This document shows, one piece after another, positions 31,580 through 31,899 of a DNA stretch of 41,465 nt. Source of the stretch: a virus (Duplodnaviria > Heunggongvirae > Uroviricota > Caudoviricetes); the IMG/VR virus record IMGVR_UViG_2917881069_000006; one strand, written 5' to 3'. Below the pieces are notes generated by a model. It was not told the origin of the DNA, ran no database searches, and worked only from the letters and a program-made list of their open reading frames with translations. Every line of letters begins with the position of its first letter. Position 1 is the first letter of the stretch. Position numbers and translations under genes: made by a program.

Positions 31580-31899
31580 TTATTGAACTTCTCGATCGAG
31601 AATATTCAGAACCCAGCGGGGGAACTCTTTGGCCACAGGAGTTCGTGCGAACATGACGATCAGTTGGTCTCCCCGAAGGCTAAATACTCAAGACGCCTGC
31701 ATCCCACGAGGGTGGTCACTTTGGCCCCTCCTGTCATCATGTCTGTAAATTCATCTGAGTGACGAGAGTAAATGCGCTTAGCTGCTTTATCGTCCGCATA
31801 TTCCAGTGCTAAACCAACTTCAGTGGCAGTAAGCCAAATTCTGTTATTGTGGCAAATCGGGGTAAACGTCGTTTTGAGGAATGCTAATTGAGTAGTCAT
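31580..31899 (-). pseudogene. Bro-N/AntA-like (antirepressor N-terminal domain) protein with 1-nt frame break
   Basis: N-terminal frame MTTQLAFLKTTFTPICHNNRIWLTATEVGLALEYADDKAAKRIYSRHSDEFTDMMTGGAKVTTLVG then stop; a second frame continues ...FSLRGDQLIVMFARTPVAKEFPRWVLNILDREVQ matching the conserved Bro-N C-terminal pattern; break near the A3/T3 run at 31682-31684; span 320 nt (3n+2). Confidence 0.5.

What the first reader, a model, noticed from the sequence alone, without database searches (positions are those of the whole stretch)
31580..31899. Bro-N/AntA-like small protein with a single-base frame break
The N-terminal part has the Bro-N pattern (F..F.....W.TATEVGLALEY) and the conserved C-terminal part (LIVMFARTPVAKEFPRWVLN) is in a different frame; the break maps to a short A/T run at 31682-31684. 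A stand-alone Bro-N domain next to a serine recombinase is atypical for a lambdoid nin region.
Basis: partly seen in the sequence, partly recalled or inferred. Interest (0 to 1): 0.4.

Follow-up and report, generated by a model that had tools for sequence, protein, structure and literature searches.

The report
Decayed prophage antirepressor-like gene remnant
This is the dead 5' stump of an ordinary two-domain, antirepressor-like prophage gene, broken by one base deletion, two stop codons and loss of its 3' half, and it sits behind a known small-RNA switch (IsrK/C4).

Summary
The two-frame Bro-N signal is real, but the diagnosis needs correcting. Aligned with intact homologues (about 200 aa, Bro-N + P22_AR_C), the minus-strand gene at 31544-31899 has four lesions:
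- a 1-nt deletion in a C4 run (plus-strand GGG, 31710-31712), not at 31682-31684;
- CGA>TGA at 31688-31690;
- CAA>TAA at 31580-31582;
- loss of the whole P22_AR_C half at 31544, where the DLP12-type ybcK serine-recombinase cassette begins.

The deletion is not a sequencing error. The exact 79-aa product occurs in many independent assemblies. Sister loci carry only some of the lesions, so the decay is nested.

Intact alleles are under strong purifying selection (pN/pS 0.00-0.05). The frameshifted clade evolves neutrally (about 1.0-1.2), including the codons that are still translated.

Directly upstream, on the same strand, Rfam finds IsrK (32055-32127) and C4 antisense RNA (31946-32031). This is the architecture that controls antirepressor translation in P1/P7 immI and in Gifsy-1 isrK-orf45-anrP.

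ybcK in this region is common (1421 of 5426 E. coli genomes). The gene was never a stand-alone Bro-N protein.

Verdict: an ordinary pseudogene in a prophage that shows other broken genes. Low interest.

The parts
32055..32127 (-). IsrK-type Hfq-binding sRNA. Its intrinsic terminator hairpin is at 32061-32075, followed by a T-run.
   Evidence: Rfam RF01394 scores 54.8 bits (gathering 50), with the full model matched. Terminator scan. A weak c4-a1b1 match (RF03163, 32 bits, below gathering 46.7) overlaps at 32090-32140.
31946..32031 (-). C4-type antisense RNA. It ends 46 nt upstream of the gene's ATG.
   Evidence: Rfam RF01695 scores 67.5 bits (gathering 45), model positions 1-87 of 87. The same isrK + C4 pair precedes the gene in all 11 homologous loci tested; in L015 only C4 reached the threshold.
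31917..32027 (-). Small 36-aa ORF overlapping C4 (MVGCVRASSEGPG...GVVGGDG). It is the counterpart of Gifsy-1 orf45.
   Evidence: ORF list. Its start, MVGCV, matches the E. coli and S. dysenteriae ORF45 sequences in S8 Fig of PMC4825925.
31660..31899 (-). Residual 79-aa ORF: about 63 native Bro-N codons, then about 16 out-of-frame codons and a stop. A Shine-Dalgarno sequence GAGG lies at 31907-31910.
   Evidence: Pfam Bro-N scores only 14.3 bits, below the threshold.
31710..31712 (.). Homopolymer that lost one base (CCCC to CCC on the minus strand). This is the true frameshift site.
   Evidence: Alignments with intact alleles. In IMG/VR, 42 loci have CCCC and 2 have CCC.
31688..31690 (-). Nonsense codon TGA in the ancestral frame (CGA in all relatives). 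Seen only in the window and L006.
31580..31582 (-). Nonsense codon TAA in the ancestral frame (CAA in intact alleles). Shared by the whole frameshifted clade.
31544..31709 (-). Out-of-frame remainder of the Bro-N domain plus the interdomain linker (ancestral codons about 64-118). Homology to the gene ends at 31544.
   Evidence: The tblastn match of aa 64-120 of the intact protein contains both stops. BLAST end points.
29794..31543 (-). DLP12-type ybcK cassette that replaces the P22_AR_C half of the gene. The ybcK ORF is at 29939-31339 (466 aa). It has its own +1 frameshift in the T5 run at 29970-29974.
   Evidence: Aligns end to end at 90% identity with E. coli ML35 ybcK. Pfam finds Resolvase, Recombinase and Zn_ribbon_recom. 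Frameshift.

Best explanation
The feature is a pseudogene: the 5' remnant of an antirepressor-like early gene of a lambdoid prophage.

The intact gene encodes a protein of about 200 aa, with an N-terminal Bro-N domain and a C-terminal P22_AR_C domain. It lies between ren and the nin genes. It is transcribed as the last part of an isrK - C4/orf45 - gene unit. By analogy with P1/P7 immI and Gifsy-1 isrK-orf45-anrP, the RNAs gate translation of the protein (inferred, not shown here).

In this lineage the gene was destroyed in steps:
1. One C was lost from a C4 run, probably by replication slippage. This puts a stop after codon 79.
2. A CAA>TAA change arose. Steps 1 and 2 are shared by the whole clade, and their relative order is unknown.
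3. The 3' half was replaced at 31544 by a mosaic junction with the ybcK cassette.
4. A CGA>TGA change arose. Its order relative to step 3 is not resolved.

No functional Bro-N domain can be made. What can be translated is about 63 native residues plus an out-of-frame tail, and this product is not under selection. The upstream RNA genes still match their Rfam models and may still be transcribed.
For: Lesions:
- All four were seen directly in alignments with intact homologues.
- Intact homologues have Bro-N at 40.5 bits and P22_AR_C at 61.4 bits.
- 38 of 39 evaluable IMG/VR alleles with CCCC have uninterrupted ORFs of 199-205 aa.

Not a sequencing error:
- The exact 79-aa product is indexed in 41 blocks of public contigs.
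- It is annotated in E. coli-labelled genomes and in Escherichia sp. E2661.

Nested decay:
- L002-L005 and L007-L009 share the deletion and the TAA, but keep CGA and the P22_AR_C DNA.
- L015, L064 and L065 share the ybcK junction, and L015 (the one aligned) lacks the TGA.
- Only the window and L006 have all four lesions.

Selection:
- Among intact alleles there are 6-10 synonymous and 0-1 nonsynonymous differences (pN/pS 0.00-0.05).
- Inside the frameshifted clade there are 2 synonymous and 7-8 nonsynonymous differences (pN/pS 1.0-1.2).
- This includes codons 1-62, which are still translated (1 synonymous, 5 nonsynonymous).

RNA module. Known mechanism of such modules: PMC4825925. The PHROG families matched are labelled 'anti-repressor Ant'.
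Against: - No member of this exact protein family has been tested, so 'antirepressor' rests on domain names, PHROG labels and the RNA context. The Gifsy-1 protein controlled by the homologous RNA leader (AnrP) belongs to a different Pfam family, ORF6N.
- The substitution counts behind pN/pS are small.
- The window-specific lesions are supported only by the window and the identical L006, which may be the same genome. These lesions are the TGA and the A-run indels in neighbouring genes.
- Expression of the 79-aa peptide is not excluded, because the Shine-Dalgarno sequence and ATG are intact.
Confidence: 0.9

Rival explanations
1. The frame break is a sequencing or assembly error in a homopolymer, and the gene is really intact.
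For: The lesion lies in a homopolymer. This window also has four other homopolymer indels seen only here and in L006: ybcK, the 128-aa gene, and two in tape-measure gene H. This pattern could indicate an error-prone assembly.
Against: The same deletion, giving the identical 79-aa product, is found in many independent assemblies, including short-read Logan assemblies. Even with the base restored, the frame holds TGA and TAA substitutions, and the 3' half is absent.
Confidence: 0.03
2. The frameshift is programmed (ribosomal -1 slippage or transcriptional slippage), so a full Bro-N protein is still made.
For: The same one-base deletion occurs in at least two allele backgrounds. In L010-type alleles the -1 frame stays open into a 120-aa P22_AR_C ORF.
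Against: - By inspection, no X_XXY_YYZ slippery heptamer lies in the overlap (GTC AAA GTG ACC ACC CTC GTG).
- A run of three C is too short for transcriptional slippage.
- In the window the -1 frame hits TGA 8 codons after the site and TAA later, and the C-terminal domain is gone.
- Evolution in the clade is neutral.
- The deletion allele is rare: 2 of 44 IMG/VR loci, and 0 of 135 complete E. coli genomes with the common haplotype.
Confidence: 0.02
3. The 79-aa ORF is a functional small protein in its own right, for example a truncated Bro-N acting as a modulator, kept next to the recombinase.
For: It has an intact Shine-Dalgarno sequence and ATG. The identical 79-aa sequence is present on many contigs.
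Against: - Codons 1-62 show 1 synonymous and 5 nonsynonymous changes within the clade.
- The out-of-frame tail varies: 79 aa here and 97 aa in sister haplotypes.
- It fails the Bro-N threshold and lacks the conserved FARTPVAKEF...W segment.
- Adjacency to ybcK is a rare mosaic junction, seen in 2 of 80 ybcK loci.
Confidence: 0.04
4. The truncation at 31544 was made by site-specific insertion of a mobile ybcK (large serine recombinase) cassette that targets the linker of this gene.
For: - The cassette has the same end points in the window and in E. coli ML35, but different flanks on both sides.
- In 59 of 80 ybcK loci, a fragment of this gene starting at about nt 297 follows ybcK; 57 of these also keep P22_AR_C sequence.
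- In the window type, nt 1-356 of the gene precede ybcK.
- So the same 60 nt of linker adjoin the cassette in both arrangements.
Against: - No locus has both gene halves flanking the cassette.
- The two junctions lie at different gene positions (about 297 and 356) and at different cassette ends, which a single att-site integration does not produce.
- There are no convincing terminal repeats.
- Relative to L002, the window shows a replacement, not an insertion: P22_AR_C plus a 260-aa gene were swapped for ybcK plus orf118.
- Ordinary lambdoid mosaic recombination explains the pattern.
Confidence: 0.08

Closest known systems
'P22AR C-terminal domain-containing protein' of E. coli lambdoid prophages (e.g. 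WP_073508529.1 in strain S21; annotated 'Rha protein' XSB42083.1 in phage PhiR26_1)
   Same: 94% DNA identity over window 31544-32100. Same position between ren and the nin genes, same start codon, and the same upstream isrK/C4 leader.
   Different: Those genes are intact (199-205 aa, Bro-N + P22_AR_C). The window copy has a 1-nt deletion and two nonsense codons, and lacks the P22_AR_C half.
Gifsy-1 isrK-orf45-anrP locus of Salmonella (Hershko-Shalev et al. 2016, PMC4825925)
   Same: An IsrK sRNA with its terminator, then a small ORF overlapping a processed C4/STnc1160-like RNA, then an antirepressor-like gene starting MTTQ.
   Different: AnrP is an ORF6N-domain protein (67.9 bits), not Bro-N + P22_AR_C. 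Only the first ~59 residues align, weakly (E 0.003 in a pairwise comparison). The Gifsy-1 locus lies downstream of antQ, whereas this one lies between ren and the nin genes. Here the protein gene is dead.
immI operon of phages P1/P7 (c4 antisense RNA - icd - ant). The mechanism is cited from established knowledge: Citron & Schuster 1990.
   Same: A C4 RNA above Rfam's threshold is followed by an antirepressor-type gene. The motif ATTGGCGTC occurs both upstream of C4 (32105) and downstream of it (31943). Its complement CGCCAA lies inside C4 (31973). This matches the b1/b2 target layout.
   Different: There is no icd. The cargo protein is different. The a1b1 match is below threshold. Pairing energy was not better than for shuffled sequences in my crude test.
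P22 Ant antirepressor
   Same: The intact relatives carry the P22_AR_C domain, named after the C-terminal domain of P22 Ant. They also hit PHROGs labelled 'anti-repressor Ant'.
   Different: The N-terminal domain is Bro-N rather than P22_AR_N. The window copy has lost the P22_AR_C part altogether.
ybcK of cryptic prophage DLP12 (E. coli K-12)
   Same: The neighbouring recombinase is 90-91% identical in DNA. It occupies the same ren-to-ybcN interval as in 1421 of 5426 E. coli genomes.
   Different: Here emrE is absent, and the Bro-N stump lies upstream of ybcK in its place. This arrangement is rare: 2 of 80 IMG/VR loci, and none in complete E. coli genomes. The window's ybcK is frameshifted near codon 455.

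Membership tests
Bro-N domain (Pfam PF02498) | The encoded product matches the profile above the gathering score (25.6 bits) across the domain. | tested here: not met
   The 79-aa ORF scores 14.3 bits, covering profile positions 8-41 only.
Bro-N domain (Pfam PF02498) | The DNA descends from a Bro-N gene, shown by the conceptually repaired translation passing the threshold. | tested here: met
Both cover profile positions 8-93 of 96. The intact homologue scores 40.5 bits.
Two-domain Bro-N + P22_AR_C antirepressor-like proteins | A C-terminal P22_AR_C domain (PF10548). | tested here: not met
   Present in the intact homologue at 61.4 bits. tblastn of that protein finds nothing beyond residue 120 anywhere in the window.
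Two-domain Bro-N + P22_AR_C antirepressor-like proteins | An uninterrupted ORF of about 200 aa. | tested here: not met
   The window copy has a frameshift, TGA and TAA stops, and a truncation. By contrast, 38 of 39 CCCC alleles are intact.
C4/IsrK RNA-controlled antirepressor module (P1/P7 immI; Gifsy-1 isrK locus) | A C4-type RNA directly upstream, on the same strand. | tested here: met
   RF01695 scores 67.5 bits against gathering 45, at 31946-32031.
C4/IsrK RNA-controlled antirepressor module (P1/P7 immI; Gifsy-1 isrK locus) | An IsrK sRNA with its own terminator, upstream of C4/orf45. | tested here: met
   RF01394 scores 54.8 bits against gathering 50, at 32055-32127. The terminator is at 32061-32075.
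C4/IsrK RNA-controlled antirepressor module (P1/P7 immI; Gifsy-1 isrK locus) | Target sites complementary to C4, upstream (a1b1) and near the downstream ribosome-binding site (a2b2). | tested here: inconclusive
   c4-a1b1 scores 32 bits, below gathering 46.7. The ATTGGCGTC repeats and their complement in C4 were seen, but duplex energy was not better than for shuffles.
C4/IsrK RNA-controlled antirepressor module (P1/P7 immI; Gifsy-1 isrK locus) | The downstream protein inactivates the prophage repressor. | not testable with these tools
   No experimental data were found for this protein family. The window copy is a pseudogene in any case.
Gifsy-1 AnrP (ORF6N) family | The protein is homologous to AnrP and has an ORF6N domain. 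| tested here: not met
   AnrP hits ORF6N at 67.9 bits, whereas this family hits Bro-N. In BLASTP only 59 N-terminal residues align, at E 0.003.
Programmed -1 ribosomal frameshift gene | A slippery heptamer in the overlap, and an open downstream frame giving a functional product. | tested here: not met
   No X_XXY_YYZ motif was found by inspection of 31700-31730. The -1 frame contains TGA and TAA.

The most novel reading that the evidence does not exclude
Inactivation of this antirepressor-like gene might be recurrently selected in lysogens, because it would lock the prophage against IsrK-triggered induction.

The identical C-run deletion arose at least twice. The L010 haplotype equals the commonest intact haplotype except for that base, and the nearest distinguishing SNPs are 12 nt upstream and 9 nt downstream. 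Other alleles carry different disabling lesions.

The surviving IsrK and C4 RNAs could still act in trans on antirepressor modules of co-resident prophages.
Probability: 0.1. Interest if true: 0.4.

Novelty: already known. Interest (0 to 1): 0.1.

Why it matters
It matters little in itself. The main value is to correct the annotation. This is a multi-hit pseudogene of a known, RefSeq-annotated prophage gene family, not an unusual stand-alone Bro-N protein.

Three by-products are useful:
- The family's intact members are under strong purifying selection and always sit behind an IsrK/C4 RNA leader. This supports an antirepressor-type role and gives a testable E. coli counterpart of the Gifsy-1 isrK locus with a different protein cargo.
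- The nested series of alleles gives a small, clean example of stepwise prophage gene decay.
- The C4 run is a repeat site of the same deletion.

Tried and rejected
1. Rejected because that stretch is invariant in all alleles, and the indel is at 31710-31712.
2. Sequencing error. Rejected for the focal deletion. It remains possible for the window-only indels.
3. Programmed frameshift. Rejected (see rival explanations).
4. A natural 106-aa stand-alone Bro-N allele, with the TAA but without the frameshift. None was found among 64 homologues.
5. Orthology with Gifsy-1 AnrP. Rejected, because AnrP is ORF6N and this family is Bro-N.
6. ybcK as a targeted mobile insertion. The flank survey of 80 loci and the repeat search gave no locus with both gene halves and no terminal repeats. 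It is kept as a low-probability rival.
7. An RNA duplex test of C4 against the leader and a1b1. The result was not better than for shuffles, and the test was too crude to be informative.
8. A PDB sequence search for the intact protein. No relative was found.
9. Continued constraint on the RNAs after the gene died. Not supported. Within the frameshifted clade the RNA module differs at 6 of 228 positions and the CDS at 9-10 of 356, which are similar rates. The window's Rfam scores are the lowest of the set.
10. A literature search for a ybcK function. Nothing specific was found.

Full report
**Observation**

The window carries a lambdoid prophage whose early-right genes (O, P, ren, nin genes, Q) are on the minus strand.

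- A minus-strand ORF at 31660-31899 encodes 79 aa beginning MTTQLAFLKTTFTPICHNNRIWLTATEVGLALEY.
- The peptide LIVMFARTPVAKEFPRWVLN is read in another minus-strand frame and ends at a TAA at 31580-31582.

**What is actually broken**

The region 31544-32100 is 94% identical to a gene annotated 'P22AR C-terminal domain-containing protein' in 308 of 5426 complete E. coli genomes.

- In strain S21 that gene is 200 aa, with Bro-N (40.5 bits) and P22_AR_C (61.4 bits).
- Base-by-base alignment shows four lesions in the window:
  1. One C is missing from a CCCC run (plus-strand GGG at 31710-31712). This moves the reading frame.
  2. CGA has become TGA at 31688-31690.
  3. CAA has become TAA at 31580-31582.
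  4. Homology stops at 31544, about codon 118. tblastn finds no P22_AR_C sequence anywhere in the window.

**Not an artefact, and a nested history**

- The exact 79-aa product is indexed in 41 blocks of public contigs. It is annotated in E. coli-labelled genomes and in Escherichia sp. E2661.
- L006 is identical to the window over 1.5 kb.
- L002-L005 and L007-L009 are 99.4% identical up to 31544. They share the deletion and the TAA, but keep CGA and the P22_AR_C DNA.
- L015, L064 and L065 share the ybcK junction, and L015 (the one aligned) lacks the TGA.
- The deletion and the TAA are therefore older, and the junction is later. The TGA is seen only in the window and L006.
- Exact-pattern scans of IMG/VR found 42 loci with CCCC and 2 with CCC. 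Of the 39 evaluable CCCC alleles, 38 have uninterrupted ORFs of 199-205 aa.
- None of the 135 complete E. coli genomes with the common haplotype has the deletion.
- The deletion arose at least twice. The L010-L014 haplotype is identical over 356 nt to the commonest intact haplotype except for that base.
- Other alleles carry unrelated disabling lesions.

**Selection**

- Among intact alleles there are 6-10 synonymous and 0-1 nonsynonymous differences (pN/pS 0.00-0.05).
- Within the frameshifted clade there are 2 synonymous and 7-8 nonsynonymous differences (pN/pS about 1.0-1.2).
- This includes codons 1-62, which are still translated (1 synonymous, 5 nonsynonymous).
- The counts are small, but the direction is clear. 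The intact gene is functional and constrained. The stump is not.

**What the gene is part of**

- On the same strand, directly upstream, Rfam finds an IsrK sRNA (32055-32127; 54.8 bits, gathering 50) with its terminator (32061-32075).
- Rfam also finds a C4 antisense RNA (31946-32031; 67.5 bits, gathering 45), plus a sub-threshold c4-a1b1 match.
- A 36-aa ORF (31917-32027) overlaps C4. Its start resembles the ORF45 sequences in S8 Fig of PMC4825925.
- The isrK + C4 pair precedes the gene in all 11 homologous loci tested, whether intact or broken. In L015 only C4 reached the threshold. The pair is absent from the DLP12-type locus, which lacks the gene's 5' part.
- This is the architecture of Gifsy-1 isrK-orf45-anrP. 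There, short IsrK acts in trans on the read-through transcript, switches on orf45 and, by coupling, the antirepressor-like AnrP (PMC4825925).
- It is also the architecture of P1/P7 immI c4-icd-ant (established knowledge).
- The protein cargo differs, however. AnrP is an ORF6N protein, not Bro-N + P22_AR_C.
- PHROGs labels the matching families 'anti-repressor Ant'. Phage records call relatives Rha, Ant, BRO or hypothetical.
- No solved structure was found by sequence search.
- The antirepressor role of the intact family is therefore an inference from domains and context, not a demonstrated function.

**The 3' junction and the recombinase**

- The 466-aa neighbour is a large serine recombinase, with Resolvase, Recombinase and Zn_ribbon_recom domains. 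It is homologous to DLP12 ybcK.
- ybcK is present in 1421 of 5426 E. coli genomes, at about 91% identity.
- The cassette 29794-31543 aligns end to end with E. coli ML35. There it is flanked by emrE upstream and, downstream, by a 3' fragment of this same gene starting at about nt 297.
- Among 80 IMG/VR ybcK loci:
  - 59 have such a gene fragment downstream of ybcK (57 of them including P22_AR_C sequence);
  - 19 have no fragment of the gene (K-12-like);
  - 2 have the window arrangement, with nt 1-356 of the gene upstream of ybcK.
- A recombinase here is therefore typical, and the particular junction is rare.
- I considered a targeted mobile cassette. No locus has both halves flanking the cassette, there are no terminal repeats, and relative to L002 the window shows a replacement rather than an insertion. 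Ordinary mosaic recombination is the better reading.

**Mechanism and rivals**

- Best explanation (confidence 0.9): stepwise pseudogenisation of an RNA-gated antirepressor-like gene in a prophage that carries further apparent frameshifts. No Bro-N domain can be produced.
- Programmed frameshifting is rejected. There is no slippery heptamer, the run has only three C, there are stops in the -1 frame, the clade evolves neutrally, and the allele is rare.
- Sequencing error is rejected for the focal deletion.
- A functional 79-aa peptide is unlikely, because substitutions are neutral and the tail is variable.

**Comparison and novelty**

Every component is already described:
- the protein family is annotated in RefSeq and has PHROG families;
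- IsrK and C4 are Rfam families with known mechanisms;
- ybcK is a DLP12 gene.

The window copy is a dead member of a known family, so I rate it 'already known', with interest 0.1. The most novel reading still open is recurrent, selected inactivation of the gene with the RNAs retained for trans action. It has weak support. Within the dead clade the RNAs change at about the same rate as the pseudogene, and the window has the lowest Rfam scores of the set.

**Caveats**

- The TGA, and the A-run or C-run indels in ybcK, in the 128-aa gene and in tape-measure gene H, are seen only in the window and the identical L006.
- All of these indels are in homopolymers and need read-level confirmation.

Noticed in passing
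window 31946-32127 (-): IsrK sRNA and C4 antisense RNA (Rfam, both above their gathering scores), with an orf45-like 36-aa ORF, lie directly upstream of the broken gene. The window's scores are the lowest among 12 related loci.
   Followed up: yes
window 29939-31339 (-), T5 run at 29970-29974: The ybcK serine recombinase is itself frameshifted near codon 455 by a +1 base in an A run (gene sense). The last ~50 codons are read in another frame (ORF 29812-30006). Only the window and L006 have this. L064 and L065 are intact, and L015 has a different insertion.
   Followed up: yes
window 32261-32647 (+), A4 run at 32394-32397: A 128-aa gene on the opposite strand, between ren and isrK, is split by a +1 A insertion relative to L002. 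It has an N-terminal hydrophobic segment and a weak sub-threshold WYL hit.
   Followed up: partly
window 10265-12826 (-), indels near 11087 and 10981: Tail tape-measure gene H has a -1 deletion (AAAAACC to AAAAAC) and a +1 insertion (A5 to A6) about 105 nt apart. The patch between them is out of frame and has two stops. If real, the prophage cannot make tails.
   Followed up: partly
window 31544-31603, and L062 2323-2381 (E. coli ML35): The same ~60 nt of the gene's interdomain linker lie upstream of ybcK in the window type and downstream of ybcK in the common DLP12 type. This is unexplained. It may be coincidence, or a preferred mosaic junction.
   Followed up: partly
window 32128-32159: Homology to the S21-type module ends just upstream of isrK (13-17 differences in 32 nt, against 1-4 in the 73 nt of isrK). 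The isrK promoter region is therefore a different mosaic segment here. A candidate promoter is TTGACC, 17 nt, TAATTC on the minus strand at about 32140-32163.
   Followed up: no
window 26214-26606 (-): Rfam finds a cspA thermoregulator 5' UTR (158 bits) in the late-regulatory region downstream of Q. It belongs to a prophage-borne cold-shock protein gene; a CSD protein is called at the matching place in L006.
   Followed up: no
L035 5602-5788 and 8071-8253: One IMG/VR contig carries two isrK + C4 modules 2.5 kb apart. This suggests two RNA-gated antirepressor-type cassettes in one phage.
   Followed up: no
L010 686-2188, L063 4170-5672: In related prophages the interval between ren and isrK holds defence-type genes on the opposite strand: a SNIPE/T5orf172 protein in L010, and a gene annotated PD-lambda-1 in L063. 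The ren-to-nin interval appears to be a cargo hotspot.
   Followed up: no
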